Positions 2,267-31,765 of a stretch of 64,000 nt of DNA are shown one piece after another; position 1 is the first letter of the stretch; each line of letters begins with the position of its first letter. The notes under the pieces are model-generated. The model was not told where the DNA came from. It searched no databases and saw only the letters and a program-made list of their open reading frames with translations. This DNA is from Escherichia phage Eps7. The position numbers were made by a program, and so were the translations under genes. The stretch lies in the sequence record NC_010583.1; one strand, 5' to 3'.

Positions 2267-2845
2267 TTATTCTCCAATTACTAAAACATCATGTTGGGAA
2301 GATACACCACACATATAATCTGCACAATGCGTAAAAGCCAGATCAATGATTTCAAATATATCATCTACATCTAAATCTGTGGCTCGACAATCCGCAATAG
2401 CTAAACCTGTACGAATACTGGAAAGTACATCTTCTCCTCCACAGCCTACACCGGCATATTCAACTTCTAGAATAGAAGCATTAGATTGGAAAATAAAGAT
2501 TCTTCCTTTGTAGAGCATAATAAATTGTCCCAGATTAGGTTCAGCATATTTTTCATTTTTCTTTTCGCCAAAATCTTTCTGGTTAAACATATCACGTAAT
2601 TTAGGTACTATTTCCGTATATAAATATTTATCATCGGAAATATCTGCTAAACGTGGTGGTACAGTAAAGCTATGCTCTAGTAATTGTCCCATGTAGAAGG
2701 AACTAGTGTATCCGAAGTACAAATCATCAGAGATTTTGAATACTTTCGGATTTTTAACCAGCAGTTTCGTATAGCCATTAGAACCCATACGATCACCAGC
2801 TAAGTATACTTTATCTTTATATTTAAATGCTACTATGGCTGTCAT
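2267..2845 (-). CDS. HslV/proteasome beta-like Ntn-hydrolase peptidase
   Basis: MTAIVAF..VYLAGDRMGS N-terminus (Thr2 nucleophile, AGD) and GVGCGGED matching the HslV GSGG region; 192 aa. Confidence 0.7.
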   Translation of the reverse strand: MTAIVAFKYKDKVYLAGDRMGSNGYTKLLVKNPKVFKISDDLYFGYTSSFYMGQLLEHSFTVPPRLADISDDKYLYTEIVPKLRDMFNQKDFGEKKNEKYAEPNLGQFIMLYKGRIFIFQSNASILEVEYAGVGCGGEDVLSSIRTGLAIADCRATDLDVDDIFEIIDLAFTHCADYMCGVSSQHDVLVIGE

Positions 2846-2875
2846 TATTAAATCCTTCTGTCAAATTAGAAGTAT

Positions 2876-2904
2876 ATTATATTTGAATTTCACTCAGTAA
2901 GCAA
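2876..2904 (-). promoter_or_regulatory. sigma70-type promoter TTGCTT-17-TATAAT
   Basis: minus strand reads CATTTGCTTACTGAGTGAAATTCAAATATAAT, upstream of an AAGGAT RBS. Confidence 0.55.
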
Positions 2905-2920
2905 ATGAAATTTAAATATA

Positions 2921-2938
2921 ATAGCCCCGAAGGGCTAT
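2921..2938 (-). terminator. hairpin with UUCG tetraloop, followed by a T-rich tract
   Basis: ATAGCCCCGAAGGGCTAT; minus-strand RNA forms C(UUCG)G stem-loop then UUAUAUUU. Confidence 0.5.
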
Positions 2939-2943
2939 TTGAA

Positions 2944-3297
2944 TTAGATTATAATCAAGATTATTAGGGCGTATGTCAGATAATGCAGTAACTGATCAAA
3001 TCCTAAAGCTATCCAAAACTTAGCATCGCTTATAGCATATTTACAGCGTTGTGCTTTCCAATAATCTATAATAAAGTGTAGAATTAATTCCATAATAGCT
3101 AAAGCTATAGACATTCCTGGTGATGTGAATAGGATTAGAATTGCAAATGTTAATCCAGCATGTACTAGCGAATGGGTTAATAATGGAAGTTTCCACCCTA
3201 TTTTATGCGTCTTTCTTAGCATATATGGTGTTTGGAGTGGATAATCGGCCATAAAATGTTTTAGAAAGAATATGACAAATAATAGTATAATTAACAT
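2944..3297 (-). CDS. hypothetical multi-pass membrane protein (His-rich)
   Basis: 117-aa ORF with three or four hydrophobic segments. Confidence 0.5.
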   Translation of the reverse strand: MLIILLFVIFFLKHFMADYPLQTPYMLRKTHKIGWKLPLLTHSLVHAGLTFAILILFTSPGMSIALAIMELILHFIIDYWKAQRCKYAISDAKFWIALGFDQLLHYLTYALIILIII

Positions 3298-3300
3298 ATG

Positions 3301-4155
3301 TTACACCGTAAATGGATATGCAATAGCAGGATGGTGTTCATAGCCACGAACAGTAAAATCATCCTTACTTACCCACGTTAATACATCATCCAAAGTTCTA
3401 ATATTTGGATTGATTTCTAAAGTAGGAGGTGCAAAAGGTTCACGATCGAATTGCTTGTGCTCCATCAGAACATTATACTGATCTTCATAGATATGAAGAT
3501 TAATAATCTTTTGACGAGCAATACCTGGCTTAAGACCTGTAATCTGTGCCATAATAGCTAGAAGTGCATAGCATTGCACCATATTAAATACTTGGCCCAG
3601 CAAGAAATCATTAGACCTCTGGAAAGAGTTTAGGTATAGTGTATCACCTAAAATAGAGAATTGATGGGTATGCATACACGGACGTAGGCATCCTTTACGA
3701 AATTCCCCACGGGTTCCAAAAGTTAAAATTTCTCCACGATCGTCAATCCCTCTTTTCAAATTATGATAGACTTTGGCTAACTGATCAAATACCATACCAT
3801 CAGAATTAGTCCAATGACGTCCTTGAACACCATAGACTCGTCCCATATCATCCTCGCCTTTACGGAATGGATTACCTAGCCAGGCAATATTTTCATTTGC
3901 ATTAGCATTCCATGTATTAACACCAATAGCGCGGAATTGTGCTGCTGAGTCGTACCCACGGAGATATCCGATCATTTCCATTATTGCTTGTTTAGCAAAT
4001 GCTTTACGAGTAGTTACTAGCGGCAGTTCTCCTGCTCCTACGTTAAAGGTAAAGTCTGCATCAATAATGGTTAGGCAACGAACCCCTGTTCTAGGATTCG
4101 TTACCCATACACCCTCTTCAAGAATACGTTTTCCAGTTTCAATATATTGCTTCAT
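3301..4155 (-). CDS. thyA: thymidylate synthase
   Basis: active-site region [10 protein letters not shown] (Cys nucleophile) and overall ThyA-like layout; 284 aa. Confidence 0.95.
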
Positions 4156-11695: not shown

Positions 11696-11729
11696 CAGCC
11701 AGATCGCTAGTCGATCTGGCTTTTATTTT
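11696..11729 (+). terminator. rho-independent terminator
   Basis: GCCAGATCG-CTAG-TCGATCTGGC followed by TTTTATTTT. Confidence 0.7.
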
Positions 11730-11731
11730 AT

Positions 11732-11760
11732 TTGCTTTCGAGCTAAAACTTATGTATAAT
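11732..11760 (+). promoter_or_regulatory. T5-type promoter TTGCTT-17-TATAAT with downstream TGATTTATAAATTTGAGAGGAG box
   Basis: sequence match to the promoter family recurring on this strand. Confidence 0.65.
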
Positions 11761-18323: not shown

Positions 18324-18540
18324 AAAGTGGGAAACAAGGAAGTTTCCAGTAAAAGAACGTAAAACTTCTGTTTACGATACTGCGGAGAAACTATGTAGGG
18401 TTGTACCACCTCGTCTCGCTGGCATCCCTAATGTCTCCATATGGTTACTTAAACAACGGAAGACTCGTGTGTCTCTTCGCATTGGCTTTGAGTTAGATAA
18501 AGTCTATGCTGAACTTGCTTCTTTGCTCAAAGAATCATAA
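18307..18540 (+). CDS. hypothetical basic protein (~77 aa)
   Basis: small ORF overlapping the helicase 3' end. Confidence 0.35.
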   Translation: MTVKNKKWETRKFPVKERKTSVYDTAEKLCRVVPPRLAGIPNVSIWLLKQRKTRVSLRIGFELDKVYAELASLLKES

Positions 18541-18549
18541 AAATTTTAT

Positions 18550-18578
18550 TTGCTTTCAGGAAAAATTTTCTGTATAAT
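18550..18578 (+). promoter_or_regulatory. T5 PN25-type strong early promoter
   Basis: ATTTGCTTTCAGGAAAAATTTTCTGTATAATAGATTCATAAATTTGAGAGAGGAGTT matches the PN25 sequence as I recall it. Confidence 0.85.
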
Positions 18579-18609
18579 AGATTCATAAATTTGAGAGAGG
18601 AGTTTAAAT

Positions 18610-19314: not shown

Positions 19315-19540
19315 ACTAACTGATCTGTTAAAAGCTGGAGACGTGAAATATCTCCAGCGAGATAGCTGGAAGAACACCCGAGACTTTACATTCTTGTTAA
19401 AATTTGATGTAGATAGTGACACTGTTAAGCTATATGAGTGGCCTAGTATACACTGCGTACGCCCGATAGTAACAGTAGTTAATCTTAGTCTAGAAGAAGC
19501 TCTGGCCGACGATTGGGAGATCGTTGAACTAGATGTGTAG
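19307..19540 (+). CDS. hypothetical protein (77 aa)
   Basis: overlaps the preceding stop. Confidence 0.4.
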   Translation: MSKLTDLLKAGDVKYLQRDSWKNTRDFTFLLKFDVDSDTVKLYEWPSIHCVRPIVTVVNLSLEEALADDWEIVELDV

Positions 19541-19560
19541 CAGTTACTGAAAAATTTCAG

Positions 19561-19589
19561 TTGCTTAATCCTGTAATTCTTGATATAAT
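19561..19589 (+). promoter_or_regulatory. sigma70 promoter TTGCTT-17-TATAAT
   Basis: TTGCTTAATCCTGTAATTCTTGATATAAT. Confidence 0.6.
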
Positions 19590-20750: not shown

Positions 20751-20777
20751 TTCTTGGCTTTTTCTTTATAAATGTAC

Positions 20778-20806
20778 TTGCTTTCGACTCAGTTTTGTTA
20801 TATAAT
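20778..20806 (+). promoter_or_regulatory. T5-type promoter TTGCTT-17-TATAAT with downstream ATTTATATAAATTGATGAGAGA box
   Basis: sequence match to the promoter family. Confidence 0.65.
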
Positions 20807-20837
20807 ATTTATATAAATTGATGAGAGATATAAATAA

Positions 20838-25105: not shown

Positions 25106-25992
25106 GTAGAATAACAGAACTACTTGATCTGAAAGGCATTGAATACAAAGACACAGGTGGGGATATCCTCATCTGTTGTCTCAATCCAGATCATGATGAT
25201 AAACACCCAAGCTTGCGTATTGACCCTGAATCAGGTATTATGCATTGCTTGAGCTGTGGCTTCGGTAGAGGAATACCGAGCATTTACCATTATTTTAATG
25301 AGACTCAGTACAGACAGTCACCAAGATTGTCACAAGTACGTAAAAAGATTTCAGAGATTAGGAATGGATCTACGAATCTTGCAATTCCTGAATCTGCTTA
25401 CCTTTTCGAAGGTGATTTCCGAGGTATCAGTTCTAAGACCTTGAAGAAATATTTTGCTTTCCAACATCAAGCAGACTGGGAAGGCAGAATTGTATTCCCA
25501 ATAACAGATGCTGTTGGACGCAATATCCTATTCTTGGGACGTTCTATAAACAGTTCTGCCCCTCCTAAATACTTAGTAAAACCAAAACAAGTTTCACCAC
25601 CGATTTTCCCTGTACGATATAATACACCAGTTCTTATTCTAGTTGAAGGTATCTTTGATATGTTAAATCTAGAAGATAACGGTGTGGATTATGCTTCTTG
25701 CTGCTTTGGTACACATCAGTTTACATCTGATAACATTGCCGATAAGTTCAGTCCTTACATTATTGCTGGAGTAAGAGTAGTAGTTATCCTATTAGATAAT
25801 GATGCCTCTGGTAATAAAGCTGCGCAAGCATTGGCGAAGCTAATTCGTACAAAAACACGTTTAACACCTGTAATTGGTAACTTCCTTCTTCCAGAAGGCA
25901 AAGACCCAGGTGATTTAAATAAAGAAGAGATCGATATGTTGGCTCAACGTATTGAAATTTTAGTTGCCGAATCGCTCAAAGATTTGGTATAA
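25102..25992 (+). CDS. DNA primase (DnaG-like: zinc-binding domain plus TOPRIM)
   Basis: CLNPDHDDKHPSL..HCLSCGFG Zn motif; TOPRIM LVEGIFD and LLDNDASG. Confidence 0.85.
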   Translation: MSRITELLDLKGIEYKDTGGDILICCLNPDHDDKHPSLRIDPESGIMHCLSCGFGRGIPSIYHYFNETQYRQSPRLSQVRKKISEIRNGSTNLAIPESAYLFEGDFRGISSKTLKKYFAFQHQADWEGRIVFPITDAVGRNILFLGRSINSSAPPKYLVKPKQVSPPIFPVRYNTPVLILVEGIFDMLNLEDNGVDYASCCFGTHQFTSDNIADKFSPYIIAGVRVVVILLDNDASGNKAAQALAKLIRTKTRLTPVIGNFLLPEGKDPGDLNKEEIDMLAQRIEILVAESLKDLV

Positions 25993-25993
25993 T
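25985..25993 (+). promoter_or_regulatory. extended -10 element (TGGTATAAT) upstream of the polymerase gene
   Basis: lies inside the primase 3' end. Confidence 0.35.
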
Positions 25994-26054
25994 ATATTGG
26001 TAAGTTAGAGAAGAAACACTGAAGTTATACTTACTTACCAAAAGAAGACTAAAT

Positions 26055-28622
26055 TTGAAAATTGCAGTAGTTGATAAAGCTCTAAATAACACTCGTTATG
26101 ATAAACACTTCCAGCTTTATGGTGAGGAAGTTGATGTATTCCATATGTGTAACGAGAAGTTATCTGGCCGTTTGCTGAAAAAGCATATTACAATCGGAAC
26201 TCCAGATAACCCGTTCGATCCGAACGATTACGATTTTGTTGTACTAGTTGGTGCTGAACCTTTCCTGTATTTCGCAGGTAAGAAAGGTATCGGTGATTAT
26301 ACTGGTAAACGTGTAGAGCATGGCGGCTATGCCAATTGGATTGCAAGTATTAGTCCAGCTCAGTTACACTTTAAACCTGAAATGAAACCAGTTTTCGATG
26401 CAACTGTAGAAAGTATTCACGATATTATTAATGGTCGTGAGAAGATTGCAAAAGCTGGTGATTATCGTCCTATTACTGATCCAGATGAAGCTGAAGAATA
26501 CATCAAGATGGTATATAACATGGTTATCGGTCCTATCGCATTCGACTCCGAAACCTCAGCTTTGTACGCTCGTGATGGTTATCTGCTTGGTGTTTCTATG
26601 TCTCACCAAGAGTACCAGGGTGTTTATATTGACTCTGACAGCATCACCGAAGTAGCTGTACATTATCTCCAGAAAATTCTGGATAGCAAGAATCATCAGA
26701 TCGTTTTTCATAACTTGAAGTTTGATATGCACTTTTATTCCTATCATCTAGGACTTTCCTTTGAGAAAGCACATAAAGAGCGTAGACTTCACGATACCAT
26801 GTTACAACACTATGTTCTTGATGAACGTCGTGGTACTCACGGCCTGAAATCTCTGGCTATGAAGTATACTGACATGGGTGATTATGACTTTGAACTGGAT
26901 AAGTTCAAGGAGGATTATTGCAAAGCACATAAGATCAAGAAAGAAGATTTCAGCTATGATCTGATTCCATTTGATATTATGTGGCCTTATGCTGCAAAAG
27001 ATACCGATGCTACTCTGCGTCTGCATAACTTCTTCTTACCGAAAATTGAGAAGAATGAAAAGCTTTGCAGTCTATACTATGACGTTCTGATGCCTGGTTG
27101 TGTATTCTTGCAACGTGTTGAAGATCGTGGTGTACCAATTTCTGTTGATCGCTTGAAAGAAGCTCAGTATCAGTTAACTCACAACCTGAACAAGGCTCGT
27201 GAAAAGCTGTATACTTATCCAGAAGTCGTTCAGCTAGAGAAAGACCAGAACGAAGCATTTAACCCTAACTCTGTTAAGCAGCTCCGTGTTCTTTTATTTG
27301 ATTATGTTGGTCTGACTCCAACTGGTAAGCTGACAGATACAGGTGCAGATTCTACAAACGCAGAAGCTCTGAACGAACTGGCTACTCAGCATCCAATTGC
27401 TAAGACTCTGCTAGAGATTCGTAAGCTGACTAAGCTGATCTCTACTTATGTTGAGAAGATTCTTCTGAGCATTGATGCAGATGGTTGCATTCGTACTGGT
27501 TTCCATGAACACATGACTACTTCTGGTCGTCTGAGTTCTTCTGGTAAGCTGAACCTGCAACAGTTACCACGTGATGAATCTATTATCAAGGGTTGTGTAG
27601 TAGCTCCCCCTGGATATCGTGTAATCGCATGGGACTTAACAACTGCGGAAGTTTATTACGCTGCTGTACTGTCTGGTGACAGAAACATGCAACAAGTATT
27701 TATCAACATGAAGAATGAGCCAGATAAATATCCTGACTTCCACTCAAACATCGCACACATGGTATTTAAACTGACCTGTGAACCGCGTGATGTTAAGAAG
27801 TTGTTCCCAGCTCTGCGTCAGGCTGCTAAGGCAATTACCTTCGGTATTCTGTACGGTTCTGGCCCAGCTAAAGTAGCTCATTCTGTTAACGAAGCTCTTC
27901 TGGAACAGGCCGCTAAGACAGGCGAACCGTTTGTTGAATGTACCGTTGCAGATGCGAAGGACTATATCGAAACTTACTTCGGTCAATTCCCTCAGCTTAA
28001 GCGTTGGATTGATAAGTGCCACGATCAGATCAAGAACTTTGGATTCATCTACAGTCACTTTGGTCGTAAGCGTCGTCTGCACAATATCCATTCTGAAGAT
28101 CGTGGTGTTCAGGGTGAGGAAATCCGTTCTGGATTTAACGCAATCATTCAGTCTGCATCTTCGGATAGCCTGTTATTAGGTGCTATTGATGCTGATGAAG
28201 AAATCCTGTCCCTGGGTCTAGGAAAAGAGATGAAGATCGTCATGTTGGTTCACGACTCCGTGGTTGCCATTGTACGTGAAGATCTGATTGATCAGTATAA
28301 TGAGATTCTGATTCGTAACATCCAGAAGGATCGTGGTATTAGTATCCCTGGCTGCCCAATCGGTATTGATTCTGATTCTGAGAAAGGTGGTTCTCGTGAC
28401 TACTCTTGTGGTAAGATGAAGAAACAGCACCCATCAATCGCTTGTATTGATGATGATGAGTATACTCGTTATGTTAAAGGTGTATTACTCGATGCAGATT
28501 TCGAGTATAAGAAGTTAGCTGCAATGGATAAAGAGCATCCAGACCACAGCAAATACAAGGATGATAAGTTTATTGCTGTATGTAAAGATCTGGATAATGT
28601 GAAAAGGATTTTAGGTGCTTGA
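26055..28622 (+). CDS. DNA polymerase, family A with 3'-5' exonuclease domain (T5-type, 855 aa)
   Basis: TTG start; exo motifs IAFDSETS, Pol A motifs; length and N-terminus match T5 polymerase as I recall it. Confidence 0.97.
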   Translation: MKIAVVDKALNNTRYDKHFQLYGEEVDVFHMCNEKLSGRLLKKHITIGTPDNPFDPNDYDFVVLVGAEPFLYFAGKKGIGDYTGKRVEHGGYANWIASISPAQLHFKPEMKPVFDATVESIHDIINGREKIAKAGDYRPITDPDEAEEYIKMVYNMVIGPIAFDSETSALYARDGYLLGVSMSHQEYQGVYIDSDSITEVAVHYLQKILDSKNHQIVFHNLKFDMHFYSYHLGLSFEKAHKERRLHDTMLQHYVLDERRGTHGLKSLAMKYTDMGDYDFELDKFKEDYCKAHKIKKEDFSYDLIPFDIMWPYAAKDTDATLRLHNFFLPKIEKNEKLCSLYYDVLMPGCVFLQRVEDRGVPISVDRLKEAQYQLTHNLNKAREKLYTYPEVVQLEKDQNEAFNPNSVKQLRVLLFDYVGLTPTGKLTDTGADSTNAEALNELATQHPIAKTLLEIRKLTKLISTYVEKILLSIDADGCIRTGFHEHMTTSGRLSSSGKLNLQQLPRDESIIKGCVVAPPGYRVIAWDLTTAEVYYAAVLSGDRNMQQVFINMKNEPDKYPDFHSNIAHMVFKLTCEPRDVKKLFPALRQAAKAITFGILYGSGPAKVAHSVNEALLEQAAKTGEPFVECTVADAKDYIETYFGQFPQLKRWIDKCHDQIKNFGFIYSHFGRKRRLHNIHSEDRGVQGEEIRSGFNAIIQSASSDSLLLGAIDADEEILSLGLGKEMKIVMLVHDSVVAIVREDLIDQYNEILIRNIQKDRGISIPGCPIGIDSDSEKGGSRDYSCGKMKKQHPSIACIDDDEYTRYVKGVLLDADFEYKKLAAMDKEHPDHSKYKDDKFIAVCKDLDNVKRILGA

Positions 28623-29112
28623 TTTCAAATTGCCCGTATATGCTTTACGGGCATTTGTATCAATTGAGCAGGAAGGTGATTATTCCGTAATTACAACAAA
28701 ATATAATAAATATGTGCTAGATAACAGGAAGTTGCCCGGCACATTCTCCCAACGTAGGTTAGCCCTATTTGAGAAGCGGAAAGAATTACCGTATAAGCTC
28801 TATCCTATTCGTGGTAGAATATCAATGTTGTCCCAATTAGTAGGGTCAAAGCGTAGCCAGTTTATAGATTCTGATGGAAATCTTATTAACTGGAAGAAAA
28901 CTACGTTCTATGATGTTATCACATCTAAAGTTCTGCATTCTGCAAGAATTTATAATGGAAAGTATCAATGTTATGTGGCTAAAGTCCCATATCCATTCGT
29001 GCTATCCTATGTTCCAGCTTATATAAGCTATATTCTGGTAAATAATAGCCCTGTTATTTATCAAGTCCATCAAGAGGAGCCTGAAATTCCTAGACTTAGA
29101 ATAAAATTATGA
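28615..29112 (+). CDS. hypothetical protein (165 aa)
   Basis: ORF coupled between the polymerase and helicase genes. Confidence 0.5.
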   Translation: MLDFKLPVYALRAFVSIEQEGDYSVITTKYNKYVLDNRKLPGTFSQRRLALFEKRKELPYKLYPIRGRISMLSQLVGSKRSQFIDSDGNLINWKKTTFYDVITSKVLHSARIYNGKYQCYVAKVPYPFVLSYVPAYISYILVNNSPVIYQVHQEEPEIPRLRIKL

Positions 29113-30461
29113 AGGTTGTTATATCTAATAAAGCCTATTTCAAGCCCGATGATGAACTCTGGGATTACTGTAGTAAGCAAACCACTTATCACATCGAGAC
29201 AATGACTAGTAAATACCCTATTATGTATAAGAATAGTGGTGTTGTTGCTAAAGAGATTAAGTGGATTCCTATTACGCGTCTGGATTTACTAGATGCTAAG
29301 GGAGTAAAGTACGAATTAGTTGATAAACGTACGTTAGCTCCGGTAGAAATACCAGAACCTCAGTTCAAACTGCGTGAAGAAGATCAGCTTCCTATATATG
29401 AAGAGTGTGATGATACTTGTATTATCAATGGTAAGCCTGGGTTTGGTAAAACTATCCTAGCTCTTGCTCTTGCATATAAGTTTGGCCAGAAAACTCTGGT
29501 AATCTGCACCAACACATCCATTCGTGAAATGTGGGCTGCAGAAGTTCGTAAATGGTTTGGGTTTGAACCTGGTATTATTGGCTCTGGGAAGTATAATATT
29601 GATCCACCAATCGTGGTCAGTAATATACAAACAGTGAATAAACATGCGAATAATCTTTCTAAAGTGTTCGGTACTGTTATAGTTGATGAAGTACACCACT
29701 GTGTGGCTACAACTTTCACTAATTTCCTAGAGATCTCATGTGCTCACTATAAGATTGGTCTATCTGGTACGTTAAAGCGTAAGGATGGCCTGCAAGTTAT
29801 GTTCAAAGACTTCTTCGGATATAAGATCTTTAGTCCACCCGTTAATAATACTGTTCCACCTACAATCCATAGGTACTCCGTGCCTGTTGAGTTATCAGGT
29901 AACCAAAACGTACCCTGGGCATTACGTGCTAACGATGTGTATAATCATCCTGAATATCGAGAAACTATTATAAACCTAGCGCATTTATATGTGTCTATGG
30001 GACATAAGGTTCTCTTTGTAAGTGATAGGACGGAACTAATCCAAACAATACTAGAAGCTCTCGCACAACGTGGTGTTACAACCTATGAGATTATAGGTGC
30101 AACTCCTTTGGATGATCGATTGAGAATCCAGAAAGATGTAGCGGAGGGCGGACCTTGTGTACTTGCAGCAGCTCAGAGTATCTTCTCAGAAGGTATTTCT
30201 CTTAACGAGCTGTCTTGTTTAATAATGGGAAGTCTCATTAATAATGAATCTCTCATAGAACAGTTAGCAGGCCGCGTTCAACGTATTGTTGACGGAAAGC
30301 TAGATCCGATTGTTGTAGATTTAATTATGAAAGGAGGTACTGGTTTAAGACAGGCTTCTGGACGTATGGCCGTGTATCGCAATAATGCATGGAAAACTAT
30401 TACTATGACTCCGGAGAAAGCAGTACAATTAGCTAAAATTGCATTTGGCAACTGCTCATAA
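29109..30461 (+). CDS. ATP-dependent DNA helicase, SF2 (T5 D10-like)
   Basis: Walker A GKPGFGKT, DEVH box VIVDEVHH; 450 aa. Confidence 0.85.
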   Translation: MKVVISNKAYFKPDDELWDYCSKQTTYHIETMTSKYPIMYKNSGVVAKEIKWIPITRLDLLDAKGVKYELVDKRTLAPVEIPEPQFKLREEDQLPIYEECDDTCIINGKPGFGKTILALALAYKFGQKTLVICTNTSIREMWAAEVRKWFGFEPGIIGSGKYNIDPPIVVSNIQTVNKHANNLSKVFGTVIVDEVHHCVATTFTNFLEISCAHYKIGLSGTLKRKDGLQVMFKDFFGYKIFSPPVNNTVPPTIHRYSVPVELSGNQNVPWALRANDVYNHPEYRETIINLAHLYVSMGHKVLFVSDRTELIQTILEALAQRGVTTYEIIGATPLDDRLRIQKDVAEGGPCVLAAAQSIFSEGISLNELSCLIMGSLINNESLIEQLAGRVQRIVDGKLDPIVVDLIMKGGTGLRQASGRMAVYRNNAWKTITMTPEKAVQLAKIAFGNCS

Positions 30462-30473
30462 TTATTGTATAAT
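30445..30473 (+). promoter_or_regulatory. T5-type promoter TTGGCA-17-TATAAT with downstream ACACATAAATTTGAGAGAGAAAG box
   Basis: first of two tandem promoters. Confidence 0.6.
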
Positions 30474-30545
30474 ATACACATAAATTTGAGAGAGAAAGTT
30501 TCGGATTGATAAGAAAGTCCGAAGCAGAAAAAATAAAAATTGTAC

Positions 30546-30575
30546 TTGTCAAATCCTCCCGATTTAATGTATAAT
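30546..30575 (+). promoter_or_regulatory. T5-type promoter TTGTCA-18-TATAAT with downstream ATACATAAATTGATGAGAGAC box
   Basis: second tandem promoter. Confidence 0.6.
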
Positions 30576-30602
30576 ATATACATAAATTGATGAGAGACAA
30601 AA

Positions 30603-30965
30603 ATGAAATTCTTTGATTACGAGAGAATTTACCTCTTAGCTAGAGGAAACTCCGACCTGATTGTCAAGCTATTTAATAGAATGCTTGCAGAGCCTGATGC
30701 TCACCAGTTACTGGTCGGTTCTTCATTCATCTTGAATGAATCAACTATTGTTGATAACCCTTACAAATTGTCTAATAGACAACTGGCAGAATATCTAGGA
30801 ATTCTAAGTCTACGAAATTATGCCGAATATAAGTTTACAAACGATCCGAGTTTGGACATGCAATATGTTCCCATATGGATACCACGTTCTGTAATCGACA
30901 CTAACCCACTAATTGCAATCAATAAATCGAAGATAATCTTTAAAGAGGAAATAAAATATGGCTAA
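30603..30965 (+). CDS. hypothetical protein (120 aa)
   Basis: ORF downstream of tandem promoters. Confidence 0.5.
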   Translation: MKFFDYERIYLLARGNSDLIVKLFNRMLAEPDAHQLLVGSSFILNESTIVDNPYKLSNRQLAEYLGILSLRNYAEYKFTNDPSLDMQYVPIWIPRSVIDTNPLIAINKSKIIFKEEIKYG

Positions 30966-31731
30966 GTCTTGGGGCGAAACTACTGGCGGTTCTAACGATA
31001 AAATCGACTTCCTGAAATTCAACAACGGTGTAACTCGTGTTCGTATCGTTTCTGGTGTTCTTCCACGTTATGTCTACTGGCTGACTAACAAAGATGGTAA
31101 TGCAGCTCCGTTTGAGTGCCTGCGTTTCAACCGTACTAAAGAGAGCTTCGTTCGCGGTAAAGCTGACCCGATTCACGAAATGGGCTTCTTCGAGAAAGAG
31201 CTGGACAAAGATGGTAATCGTGTTCCGCTGAAACCGAAGAAAAACTACATCGCTTTCGTTATCGACCGTTCTGATAACAAACTGAAAGTTATGGAAGTTA
31301 AAGCTACTATCCTGAAAGGCATCCAGTCTATCATGAAGCAGCTTGAATTGGCAGATCCATTCGATATCGATATTTCTATCGAGAAGAAAGGTAAAGGCTT
31401 CGATACTGAGTACGATGTACAGCAGATCGCAGCAATGCAGTTCCAGATGAAACTGAAAGATCCTACCAGTGCTGAATCAAAACTGCACGCCGCAGATACT
31501 GATATTCTCGGTGAAGCACTGAGTGATGAAAATGGCGATTTCCTGAAGTTCGAAAAAGTTCCTTCTCTGGAAGAAACCTATCCGGTTCCGTCCTACGAAG
31601 AGCAGAAAGAAGCTATTCTCGCCTTCATGGAAGGTCGTGAGAAGCAAGACGGCGGTGACGCTAAGTCTGGTGGTGATGCTGGTTCTCAGAAAGGCATCGA
31701 CGCTGAAGCTGCTAGCGATCTGGACGACTAA
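30958..31731 (+). CDS. putative single-stranded DNA-binding protein (acidic C-terminal tail)
   Basis: optimal codon usage; acidic tail ending DLDD; function inferred only. Confidence 0.45.
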   Translation: MAKSWGETTGGSNDKIDFLKFNNGVTRVRIVSGVLPRYVYWLTNKDGNAAPFECLRFNRTKESFVRGKADPIHEMGFFEKELDKDGNRVPLKPKKNYIAFVIDRSDNKLKVMEVKATILKGIQSIMKQLELADPFDIDISIEKKGKGFDTEYDVQQIAAMQFQMKLKDPTSAESKLHAADTDILGEALSDENGDFLKFEKVPSLEETYPVPSYEEQKEAILAFMEGREKQDGGDAKSGGDAGSQKGIDAEAASDLDD

Positions 31732-31737
31732 TAAACC

Positions 31738-31765
31738 AAGGGGAGCTACGGCTCCCTTTCTTTTT
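31738..31765 (+). terminator. rho-independent terminator
   Basis: AAGGGGAGC-TAC-GGCTCCCTT followed by TCTTTTT. Confidence 0.7.

What the first reader, a model, noticed from the sequence alone, without database searches (positions are those of the whole stretch)
30474..30545. Short hairpin-containing segment between two tandem promoters
Promoter 30445-30473 is followed by a stem-loop (TTCGGA-loop-TCCGAA, 30501-30526) and an A-rich tract before the second promoter. The first promoter may produce a short non-coding transcript or an attenuator.
Basis: seen in the sequence. Interest (0 to 1): 0.35.

Follow-up and report, generated by a model that had tools for sequence, protein, structure and literature searches.

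The report
Conserved stem-loop between tandem T5 promoters
Between two back-to-back strong early promoters of a T5-like phage lies a small, conserved, never-annotated RNA hairpin that lacks what a transcription stop signal needs, so it is probably a minor mRNA leader element and not a separate small RNA or attenuator.

Summary
The window is a T5-like Epseptimavirus. After the D10 helicase stop codon there are two sigma-70 promoters of the T5 early type: P1 (-35 at 30445, -10 at 30468, start about 30480) and P2 (-35 at 30546, -10 at 30570, start about 30582). Between them lies a stem-loop whose core is 30500-30523 and whose full 10-bp stem spans 30498-30525.

As + strand RNA it folds at -14 kcal/mol (z = -6.7); the minus strand folds at only -5.3. 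The 62 nt from the P1 start to the A-tract show no substitution between this phage and T5, although neutral sites in the flanking genes differ by 16-29%. The stem is kept in Klebsiella T5-like phages, where the loop shrinks from 12 to 3 nt, and in weaker form in Serratia phages.

The hairpin is followed by A's, not U's, so it is not an intrinsic terminator. The A-tract matches the upstream A/T block (UP-element position) of P2. No leader ORF is conserved, and Rfam has no match.

Most likely, tandem promoters boost a short operon (a 120-aa protein plus the D11 single-strand DNA-binding protein), and the hairpin is a non-terminating RNA element in the P1 and read-through leader. Its exact role (stability or processing) is inferred. 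No compensatory covariation was found. The finding is modestly interesting.

The parts
29109..30461 (+). D10 helicase gene. Its last codons (KIAFGNCS*) contain the upstream A/T block, the -35 and part of the spacer of P1.
   Evidence: ORF list. 96% amino-acid identity to T5 D10.
30435..30473 (+). Promoter P1: AAAATTG block 30435-30441, -35 TTGGCA 30445-30450, 17-nt spacer, -10 TATAAT 30468-30473. Inferred start at A30480.
   Evidence: As similar to the other T5-type promoters of the window (0.55-0.69) as to P2 (0.62). The start site is inferred by homology to the PN25-type promoter (my knowledge).
30480..30497 (+). P1 initial transcribed region ATAAATTTGAGAGAGAAA. This motif is shared by T5 early promoters and contains a Shine-Dalgarno-like GAGAGAG with no conserved start codon after it.
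   Evidence: T5 record AY587007 labels the equivalent 29 nt 'repeat c copy 7'.
30498..30525 (+). Stem-loop: 5' arm 30498-30507, loop 30508-30515, 3' arm 30516-30525. It has 10 bp including two G.U pairs. Position is +19 to +46 of P1 and -84 to -57 of P2.
   Evidence: fold, z = -6.65; minus strand -5.3. (conservation).
30526..30541 (+). A-rich tract AGAAAAAATAAAAATT, at -56 to -41 of P2. Proposed UP element / upstream A/T block of P2.
   Evidence: Position read. The same AAAAWTT block lies upstream of the -35 in most of the other T5-type promoters of the window. No substitution against T5 apart from an A-run indel.
30546..30575 (+). Promoter P2: -35 TTGTCA 30546-30551, 18-nt spacer, -10 TATAAT 30570-30575. 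Inferred start at A30582.
   Evidence: The T5 records annotate the equivalent site as a putative (early) promoter, T5P38.
30592..30965 (+). Shine-Dalgarno GAGAGA (30592-30597) and the 120-aa ORF (30603-30965), homolog of T5p123 / 'D10 3' region', function unknown.
   Evidence: phrog_4258 matches over its full length, 1-120.
30958..31731 (+). D11, a single-strand DNA-binding protein homolog. Its start overlaps the stop of the 120-aa ORF.
   Evidence: phrog_1607, E = 5e-103. Annotations.
31738..31759 (+). Canonical intrinsic terminator (9-bp stem, 5 G-C pairs, T-run) that closes the P1/P2 operon.

Best explanation
P1 and P2 are two co-directional T5-type early sigma-70 promoters 102 nt apart. 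Together they drive a short, presumably highly expressed operon: the 120-aa ORF plus the D11 single-strand DNA-binding protein, closed by the terminator at 31738-31759.

The 66 nt between them have three parts:
1. The conserved initial transcribed region of P1 (ATAAATTTGAGAGAG...).
2. A conserved + strand RNA stem-loop (30498-30525).
3. The A/T-rich UP-type upstream block of P2 (30526-30541).

The stem-loop is not an intrinsic terminator, so P1 transcripts and read-through transcripts from the polymerase-helicase genes continue into the operon.

Its most likely role is as a cis-acting RNA structure. It sits just before the very A/U-rich, RNase-sensitive stretch that P2's own DNA signals impose on the longer transcripts. 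There it could act as a barrier to 5'-end-dependent RNase E scanning. After cleavage in the A-tract it could also serve as a 3' protective hairpin for the upstream helicase mRNA.

Shown here: the promoters by consensus, the fold, the strand asymmetry, the conservation, the absence of a U-tract, and the absence of a conserved ORF.
Inferred: actual use of P1, UP-element function, and the RNA-stability role.
For: Promoters:
- Both promoters match 11/12. There are 7 such sites in the window against 2.1 expected.
- P1 shares the whole T5 early-promoter architecture with the other promoters of the window, including a PN25-like one at 18573.
- In two other T5-family (Demerecviridae-like) contigs (L044, L052) the same helicase-embedded promoter directly drives the 120-aa ORF. 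P1 is therefore a functional promoter type at this locus.

Hairpin:
- It folds at -14 kcal/mol, z = -6.65, on the + strand, against -5.3, z = -2.5, on the minus strand. The difference comes from two G.U pairs.
- Window versus T5: there are 0 substitutions in 30480-30541. Four-fold degenerate sites in the flanking genes differ by 16-29%, and the P1 spacer and P2 region differ by about 23%. At 16-25% divergence, 0 changes in 62 nt has a probability of 2e-5 to 2e-8 (my calculation).
- The stem is retained in Klebsiella T5-like phages, where the loop is cut from 12 to 3 nt. This argues against both a coding role and a fixed-spacing DNA operator.
- Six pairs are kept in register in Serratia phages Kamaji and Slocum, through a U-A to U.G change.
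- The hairpin lies 19 nt upstream of the P2 -35 in T5, Roth37 and Kamaji.

Context:
- Clear terminators in the window (e.g. 8851, 11697, 14940, 31738, 36605, 49621) have G+C-rich stems with T-runs; this hairpin has neither.
- The operon encodes a single-strand DNA-binding protein homolog, which would be needed in quantity (the inference is mine).
- Tandem or triple promoters recur at this locus in Klebsiella and Proteus phages and in other T5-family contigs.
Against: - No compensatory (double-sided) substitution was seen. Among close relatives, 4 stem changes keep pairing through wobble and 5-6 break it. Recent variation therefore shows no clear selection for pairing, and viable isolates carry a mismatch in the middle of the stem.
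- The Serratia version is weak (-5.9 kcal/mol, z = -1.2), and the covariance model does not detect it.
- Two inter-promoter segments in other lineages have no structure at all (z = +0.8 and +0.9), so tandem promoters do not generally require a hairpin.
- The hairpin starts 18 nt from the predicted P1 5' end. That is too far for the classical 5'-terminal stabiliser (my knowledge of Emory, Bouvet and Belasco 1992).
- No RNA data exist for this locus in the searchable literature. Both T5 GenBank records annotate only P2 as a promoter, so use of P1 in vivo is unproven.
Confidence: 0.5

Rival explanations
1. First reader's view. P1 makes a discrete short non-coding RNA, or the hairpin attenuates P1 and read-through transcription before P2. 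Possible mechanisms are weak non-canonical termination on the rA:dT hybrid, hairpin-induced pausing, or collision with RNA polymerase bound at the strong P2. Attenuation would also shield P2 from promoter occlusion.
For: - The hairpin is stable and conserved, and it lies at a constant 19 nt upstream of the P2 -35 in three lineages.
- Elsewhere in the window the usual module is terminator hairpin, then T-tract, then promoter (for example 11697-11760). A hairpin directly upstream of a promoter is therefore where insulators sit in this genome.
- Structured inter-promoter segments also occur in Proteus phages and in contig L054 (z = -4.5 and -2.9).
Against: - There is no U-tract (1 U in 9 nt), and the terminator scan does not call it.
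- The stem has only 4 G-C pairs out of 10.
- No leader peptide is conserved and no alternative fold is conserved.
- Rfam has no match.
- The A-tract is already explained as the upstream block of P2.
Confidence: 0.15
2. Evolutionary relic. The region between the helicase and the 120-aa gene is an insertion and deletion hotspot. On this view the inter-promoter segment is what remains after loss of a small gene cassette that P1 once drove, or a leftover of a promoter duplication. The hairpin would have little or no present function.
For: - Vibrio phage Ceto has a 135-aa gene between the P1 and P2 equivalents. Other relatives carry unrelated inserts at the same position, and L044 and L052 have a single promoter.
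- P1 carries a Shine-Dalgarno-like GAGAGAG with no gene behind it.
- Natural isolates tolerate mismatches in the stem.
- No compensatory covariation was found.
Against: - There are 0 substitutions in 62 nt between two genera whose neutral sites differ by 16-29%. The adjacent P1 spacer and P2 region do diverge.
- The stem persists in Klebsiella phages whose helicase is only 68% identical.
- The segment shows no detectable similarity to the 5' end of the ORF (1829 of 2000 shuffles score as well), so a duplication remnant is not demonstrable.
Confidence: 0.15
3. DNA-level site. The inverted repeat TTCGGA/TCCGAA, centred about -70 from P2 and +32 from P1, is an operator for a phage or host DNA-binding protein. 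That protein would tune P1 and/or P2, for example during shut-off of early genes.
For: - The palindrome is perfect and its sequence, including the loop, is conserved between genera.
- Its distance to P2 is fixed.
- The position is compatible with an upstream activator or a roadblock repressor (inference).
Against: - Half-site spacing changes from 12 to 3 bp in Klebsiella phages.
- The Serratia version changes the half-site sequences but keeps complementarity through G.U pairs.
- The extra pairs that extend the stem are G.U pairs, which have meaning only in + strand RNA.
- The motif occurs once per genome, so no regulon is visible.
Confidence: 0.1
4. Replication-origin-like element. Tandem strong promoters followed by an A+T-rich stretch lie inside the replication gene cluster and would prime DNA synthesis by transcription, as at the T7 primary origin. 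The hairpin would be a single-strand DNA or RNA landmark.
For: - The layout resembles the T7 origin (tandem promoters 1.1A and 1.1B plus an AT-rich region; my knowledge).
- The site lies between a helicase gene and a single-strand DNA-binding protein gene.
- T5 origins have not been mapped at the sequence level (my knowledge).
Against: - Cumulative GC skew has no extremum near 30.5 kb. Its extremes, at about 7.4 kb and 36.9 kb, follow gene orientation.
- The A+T-rich stretch is only about 15 nt and is already explained as P2's upstream block.
- There are no iterons or other repeats.
- There is no experimental link.
Confidence: 0.04

Closest known systems
T5 early promoters (the PN25, P25-P28 and D/E20 class; 'putative early promoter T5P38' and 'repeat c' in the T5 GenBank records)
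   Same: P1 and P2 both have a TTGnnA -35, a TATAAT -10, an AAAAWTT block near -43 and the transcribed motif ATAAATT(T)GAGAGAG. P2 is the annotated T5P38. The -10 and leader of P1 are annotated as 'repeat c copy 7'.
   Different: P1 is not annotated as a promoter in either T5 record. Unlike the other promoters of the window, it is followed by a hairpin and a second promoter, not by a ribosome-binding site and start codon within about 30 nt (or about 60-70 nt for P19584 and P25988).
Tandem promoters with UP elements upstream of highly expressed operons (for example E. coli rrn P1-P2, about 120 bp apart; my knowledge)
   Same: Two co-directional sigma-70 promoters about 100 bp apart, with an A/T-rich block at -40 to -60 of the downstream one. 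They feed a short operon whose product, a single-strand DNA-binding protein homolog, is probably needed in quantity.
   Different: No growth-rate control is implied. A conserved hairpin sits between the promoters. Promoter use and additivity are untested.
Intrinsic terminators and attenuators
   Same: A stable stem-loop lies in an intergenic leader directly upstream of a promoter. That is the position terminators occupy elsewhere in this genome.
   Different: The hairpin is followed by A's rather than U's, its stem is only moderately G+C-rich, and there is no leader peptide or antiterminator alternative.
Structured 5'-UTR and intercistronic stabiliser hairpins (ompA 5' stem-loop; obstacles to RNase E scanning; 3' protective hairpins; my knowledge of Belasco-lab work)
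   Same: A + strand RNA hairpin without termination signals, placed in front of an A/U-rich, potentially RNase E-sensitive stretch, and conserved across genera.
   Different: It lies 18 nt from the predicted 5' end rather than at it. No half-life data exist, and covariation does not prove the structure.
T4 gene 32 translational operator (a 5' structure followed by an unstructured A/U-rich leader, bound by the single-strand DNA-binding protein; my knowledge)
   Same: A structured element followed by about 77 nt of A/U-rich leader, upstream of an operon that encodes a single-strand DNA-binding protein homolog.
   Different: The structure is a simple hairpin, not a pseudoknot. D11 shows no detected homology to gp32 (Pfam and PDB searches empty). 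The first gene of the operon is not the DNA-binding protein gene. P2 transcripts lack the element. This is a resemblance only.

Membership tests
Sigma-70 T5-type early promoter (P1 and P2) | -35 and -10 hexamers close to consensus, with a 16-18 nt spacer | tested here: met
   Both match 11/12, with spacers of 17 and 18 nt. There are 7 such sites in the window against 2.1 expected.
Sigma-70 T5-type early promoter (P1 and P2) | Family-specific blocks: AAAAWTT near -43 and the transcribed motif ATAAATT(T)GAGAGAG | tested here: met
   Alignment with 7 other promoters of the window. P1 is 0.55-0.69 identical to them and 0.62 to P2.
Sigma-70 T5-type early promoter (P1 and P2) | Transcription start observed in vivo or in vitro | not testable with these tools
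   No RNA-end data were found. Only P2 is annotated as putative in the T5 records.
Intrinsic (Rho-independent) terminator | G+C-rich stem-loop | tested here: inconclusive
   The stem has 10 bp, of which only 4 are G-C and 2 are G.U. It folds at -14 kcal/mol in a 46-nt context.
Intrinsic (Rho-independent) terminator | A run of U (at least 5 of 8 nt) directly after the stem | tested here: not met
   The tail is AGAAAAAAUAAA, with 1 T in 9 nt. The scan does not list it, whereas the 31738-31759 terminator is listed.
Leader-peptide or alternative-structure attenuator | Conserved leader ORF and mutually exclusive terminator and antiterminator folds | tested here: not met
   The TTG-initiated ORF has 22 codons here and 9 in relatives (A-run indel). 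It is shifted in GSW6 and absent in Roth37. Only the hairpin recurs in folds of relatives.
Trans-acting small RNA | Own promoter plus a defined 3' end (terminator or processing site) | tested here: not met
   A promoter is present, but there is no terminator before the operon terminator at 31738. Processing cannot be assessed.
Trans-acting small RNA | Membership of a described RNA family | tested here: not met
   Rfam 15 gave no match at E up to 10 in 29500-31500. No similarity was found in E. coli genomes.
UP element of P2 | A/T-rich sequence at about -59 to -38 of the promoter | tested here: met
   The A-tract lies at -56 to -41 of P2. The same kind of block precedes the other T5-type promoters. 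There is no substitution against T5 apart from the A-run indel.
UP element of P2 | Stimulation dependent on the RNA polymerase alpha C-terminal domain | not testable with these tools
   Requires transcription assays.
Conserved cis-acting RNA stem-loop | Fold significantly more stable than shuffled sequence, and strand-specific | tested here: met
   z = -6.65 on the + strand against -2.48 on the minus strand.
Conserved cis-acting RNA stem-loop | Retention across diverged lineages | tested here: met
   Present in Tequintavirus, Epseptimavirus and Klebsiella T5-like phages (29 bits), and in a weaker Serratia version.
Conserved cis-acting RNA stem-loop | Compensatory base-pair covariation | tested here: not met
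   0 pairs show changes on both sides. There are 4 one-sided wobble changes and 5 unpaired cells. The shuffle control is uninformative.
Transcription-primed replication origin (T7-like) | Strand-composition switch or a mapped initiation site | tested here: not met
   There is no GC-skew extremum near 30.5 kb.

The most novel reading that the evidence does not exclude
The stem-loop plus the long A/U-rich leader present only on P1 and read-through transcripts could be a regulatory RNA operator. A phage protein would bind it, for example the D11 single-strand DNA-binding protein or the 120-aa protein encoded just downstream. Transcripts from P1 and P2 would then be translated or degraded differently, giving T5-like phages an autoregulatory circuit for their DNA-binding protein analogous to T4 gene 32. 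A second possibility is that the hairpin works co-transcriptionally as an insulator that lets two very strong promoters add up rather than occlude each other.
Probability: 0.1. Interest if true: 0.5.

Novelty: new member of a known kind. Interest (0 to 1): 0.3.

Why it matters
T5 promoters are classic tools (PN25 in expression vectors), yet the transcript architecture of T5-like phages is poorly mapped.

This locus shows that a promoter hidden in the last codons of the helicase gene is conserved across the T5 family. In T5 proper it is followed by a frozen 62-nt leader containing a hairpin that no genome record annotates.

If the hairpin modulates mRNA fate or insulates tandem promoters, it would be a compact, portable part for expression design. 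It would also be a first cis-RNA element described for T5 early genes. If it is inert, the locus is still a clean example of how promoter signals shape non-coding conservation.

Tried and rejected
1. Micro-ORF / leader peptide (TTG at 30506, 22 codons). Rejected: relatives have a 1-nt A-run difference giving 9 codons, GSW6 shifts the start, and Roth37 lacks it.

2. Pseudoknot between the loop UUGAUAAG and the P2 -35 region CUUGUCAA. It is possible in this window, but the loop is identical in T5, where the -35 region differs, and the loop is deleted in Roth37. There is no covariation, so it was rejected (reading).

3. Anti-Shine-Dalgarno structure in P1 transcripts. It is not conserved in folds of relatives.

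4. Homing-endonuclease co-conversion as the cause of the conservation. Rejected because the P1 spacer, which lies between the endonuclease insertion site and the hairpin, carries fixed differences between the genera.

5. Inter-promoter segment as a decayed copy of the 5' end of the ORF (a 101-nt tandem duplication). No significant similarity was found. The P1-P2 similarity is no higher than similarity within the promoter family.

6. Known RNA family or host mimic. Rfam was empty and E. coli genomes gave no match.

7. Repeated element. It is single-copy in the window and in 517 phage records.

8. Looking for more stem variants with an exact-pattern scan of viral contigs (GCAGAAAAATAAAAA). This returned mostly chance hits and only one further T5-like variant, which breaks a pair.

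9. Literature. No transcript map or mention of this sequence was found.

10. Replication origin by GC skew. No signal.

11. Structure homologs of D11 and the 120-aa protein in the PDB or Pfam. None found.

Full report
**Identity of the window and locus**

Megablast of 30300-30750 finds 428 phage records. The best (Salmonella phages HMD-P2 and LVR16A, genus Epseptimavirus) are 99.8% identical, and T5 and other Tequintavirus are about 86% identical.

The finding lies between two genes:
- the D10 helicase gene (29109-30461);
- a 120-aa ORF (30603-30965, phrog_4258, function unknown).

The 120-aa ORF overlaps D11 (30958-31731, phrog_1607, a single-strand DNA-binding protein homolog). A canonical terminator follows at 31738-31759.

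**Check of the observation**

The promoter scan gives TTGGCA-17-TATAAT (30445-30473) and TTGTCA-18-TATAAT (30546-30575). Both match 11/12 and are the best two sites in 3 kb. The whole window has 7 sites of that quality, against 2.1 in Markov simulations.

It is unique in the window, against 0.01 expected.

As + strand RNA the stem extends to 10 bp (30498-30507 with 30516-30525, 8-nt loop):
- energy -14 kcal/mol, z = -6.65;
- the minus strand reaches only -5.3 kcal/mol (z = -2.5), because two of the pairs are G.U.

The A-rich tract is 30526-30541.

**What the flanking pieces are**

Nine promoters of the T5 early type can be aligned in the window. Most share an AAAAWTT block just upstream of the -35, TATAAT, and the transcribed motif ATAAATT(T)GAGAGAG. 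One of them, at 18573, is nearly the classical PN25 sequence (the PN25 sequence is from my own knowledge).

P1 is as similar to those promoters (0.55-0.69) as it is to P2 (0.62). The 34-nt and 23-nt 'direct repeats' between P1 and P2 therefore reflect the promoter family consensus rather than a demonstrable local duplication. The segment after the repeats shows no similarity to the 5' end of the ORF.

The A-tract lies at -56 to -41 of P2. That is where UP elements lie, and it continues into the family's AAAAWTT block. Most of the 'A-rich tract' is thus part of P2.

Seven of the other promoters are followed by a ribosome-binding site and start codon: within about 30 nt for most, and about 60-70 nt for P19584 and P25988. 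P1 alone is followed by a hairpin and another promoter.

The T5 GenBank records annotate only P2 ('putative promoter'; 'putative early promoter T5P38'). The -10 and leader of P1 appear only as 'repeat c copy 7'. None of the 517 records that contain the segment annotates the hairpin.

**Conservation**

Between this phage and T5, four-fold degenerate sites differ as follows:
- 27% in the helicase gene;
- 16% in the 120-aa ORF;
- 22% in D11.

In the non-coding region the pattern is uneven:
- the 17-nt P1 spacer has 4 differences;
- the 61 nt around P2 have about 14 differences;
- the 62 nt from the P1 start through the hairpin and A-tract (30480-30541) have no substitution, only a one-base difference in an A-run.

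With 16-25% neutral divergence, the chance of no change in 62 nt is 2e-5 to 2e-8 (my calculation).

A homing-endonuclease gene is inserted in some relatives just upstream, at the end of the helicase gene. Co-conversion during homing could in principle homogenise its flanks. However, the diverged P1 spacer lies between that insertion site and the frozen block, which argues for selection on the block itself.

**Deeper relatives**

Helicase homologs were collected from viral contigs and phage records. Five points emerge.

- The promoter embedded in the helicase C-terminal codons (...KIAFG...) is present in most of the closer T5-family lineages examined.
- In contigs L044 and L052 it is the only promoter, and it drives the 120-aa ORF directly.
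- Vibrio phage Ceto has a 135-aa gene between the two promoters. Other contigs carry unrelated inserts there, so the site is an insertion hotspot.
- Klebsiella T5-like phages (helicase 68% identical) have three tandem promoters. They keep the hairpin as CUUCGGA-AAG-UCCGAAG, followed by the same GCAGAAAAAUAAAAA and a nearly identical P2 -35 and spacer. The covariance model built from T5-like sequences scores it at 29 bits. The loop has shrunk from 12 to 3 nt, which removes the TTG codon and changes the half-site spacing.
- Serratia phages Kamaji and Slocum keep six pairs in the same register (GUUUCG/CGGAGC, with one U-A changed to U.G). This fold is weak (-5.9 kcal/mol, z = -1.2), and the model does not detect it.

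In all three lineages the hairpin ends 19 nt before the P2 -35 (20 nt in this window). Its distance from the P1 start varies (19, 27 and 29 nt).

**Limits of the structural evidence**

Among nine distinct T5-like variants there is no pair with changes on both sides. There are four one-sided changes that keep pairing through wobble and five cells that break it, and the shuffle control is uninformative.

More singletons break the central C-G pair: L017, CitS1 and L136. The structure is therefore supported by four things: stability, strand asymmetry, persistence despite the loop deletion, and the Serratia wobble change. Covariation statistics do not support it, and phage isolates tolerate a weakened stem.

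**What it is not**

- Not an intrinsic terminator. The tail is AGAAAAAAUAAA and the scan does not call it. The clear terminators of the window (8851, 11697, 14940, 31738, 36605, 49621) have G+C-rich stems and T-runs, and those T-runs often double as the upstream block of the next promoter.
- Not a leader-peptide attenuator. The only ORF (TTG at 30506) is 22 codons here, 9 in relatives, shifted in GSW6 and absent in Klebsiella phages. Only the hairpin recurs in folds of relatives.
- Not a known RNA family. Rfam gave no match at E up to 10.
- Not similar to host DNA.
- Not a repeated element.
- No GC-skew sign of a replication origin.

**Most likely mechanism**

P1 and P2 act as tandem early promoters. 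They raise transcription of a short operon that ends at 31738-31759 and encodes a single-strand DNA-binding protein homolog. That tandem or triple promoters recur at this locus in several lineages fits a demand for high expression.

P1 transcripts and read-through transcripts from the polymerase-helicase genes carry a leader that P2 transcripts lack. It consists of the purine-rich start, the stem-loop, and about 77 nt of very A/U-rich RNA imposed by P2's own DNA signals.

I infer that the stem-loop is a cis-acting RNA element protecting these longer transcripts. It could obstruct 5'-end-dependent RNase E scanning into the A/U-rich stretch. After cleavage there, it could cap the 3' end of the upstream helicase message. 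This step is inference from position and from general knowledge of mRNA decay in E. coli; nothing here measures it.

**Rivals and their weights**

| Explanation | Weight |
|---|---|
| Attenuator or short RNA | 0.15 |
| Relic of cassette loss | 0.15 |
| DNA operator | 0.10 |
| Origin-like element | 0.04 |
| Cis-RNA reading, including its well-supported parts | about 0.5 |

The most novel reading not excluded is a protein-binding RNA operator, analogous to the T4 gene 32 leader, or a tandem-promoter insulator. I give it about 0.1.

**Verdict**

This is a real, conserved and unannotated feature, built from ordinary parts: T5-type promoters, a UP-type A-tract, and a small non-terminating hairpin. 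The proposed short transcript or attenuator is not supported by the sequence but remains testable. Interest is modest (0.3).

Noticed in passing
Window about 30431-30434 (insertion point); L001 758-1288; L002 757-1287: Relatives IrmaTschudi, cott162, L034 and L036 carry a 531-nt homing-endonuclease gene inserted at the very end of the helicase gene. It replaces the last helicase codons and leaves a duplicated remnant, AAAATTGCATTTGGCAACTGCTCATAA, that keeps P1 intact. This window lacks the insert.
   Followed up: partly
Window 30603-30683; L010 about 2996-3076: The 120-aa ORF starts with ATG here, but the homologous codon is ATT in T5 and other Tequintavirus. T5 records annotate a 94-aa product from an internal ATG, although the 26 upstream codons are conserved as protein and phrog_4258 covers residues 1-120. 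This suggests either a non-canonical ATT start or mis-annotation.
   Followed up: partly
L009 (Yersinia phage phiR2-01), about 1150-1200: About 28 nt of the P2 leader are missing, so the 120-aa ORF homolog would be nearly leaderless with a TTG start. The gene is not annotated in that record.
   Followed up: no
Window 30528-30533: The A-run has 6 A here but 5 A in all 36 aligned relatives. No phage record matches the 75-nt query at 99% or more. This is either a private variant or a homopolymer sequencing error. It moves the hairpin 1 nt away from P2.
   Followed up: partly
L011 and L041 (Klebsiella phages), about 2840-3060; L054, about 3500-3800: Three tandem T5-type promoters lie between the helicase gene and the 120-aa gene homolog. 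Two of the four inter-promoter segments show no RNA structure (z = +0.8 and +0.9).
   Followed up: partly
L049 and L050 (Proteus phages); L054; L011; window 19539-19565: The inter-promoter or upstream segment carries an inverted copy of the downstream promoter's -35 and upstream block. Examples are AATCTGCAAGTGAAGTT...AATTTTATTTGCAGATT and CAGTAAAGCAATT...AATTGCTTTACTG. In read-through RNA this gives long hairpins (z = -4.5 and -2.9). The meaning is unknown.
   Followed up: no
Window 25988-26057: The leader of the DNA polymerase gene (TTG start at 26055) has a 5'-proximal inverted repeat, TTGGTAAGT...ACTTACTTACCAA, directly after its promoter. It could be a 5' stem-loop of the polymerase mRNA.
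   Followed up: no
Window 11697-11760 and 20751-20837: Terminator hairpins whose T-runs run straight into the -35 of the next T5-type promoter. The same T-tract probably serves as both the terminator tail and the promoter's upstream block.
   Followed up: no
Window 18528-18600: A promoter nearly identical to the classical T5 PN25 sequence used in expression vectors: TCATAAAAATTTTATTTGCTTTCAGGAAAAATTTTCTGTATAATAGATTCATAAATTTGAGAGAGGAG.
   Followed up: no
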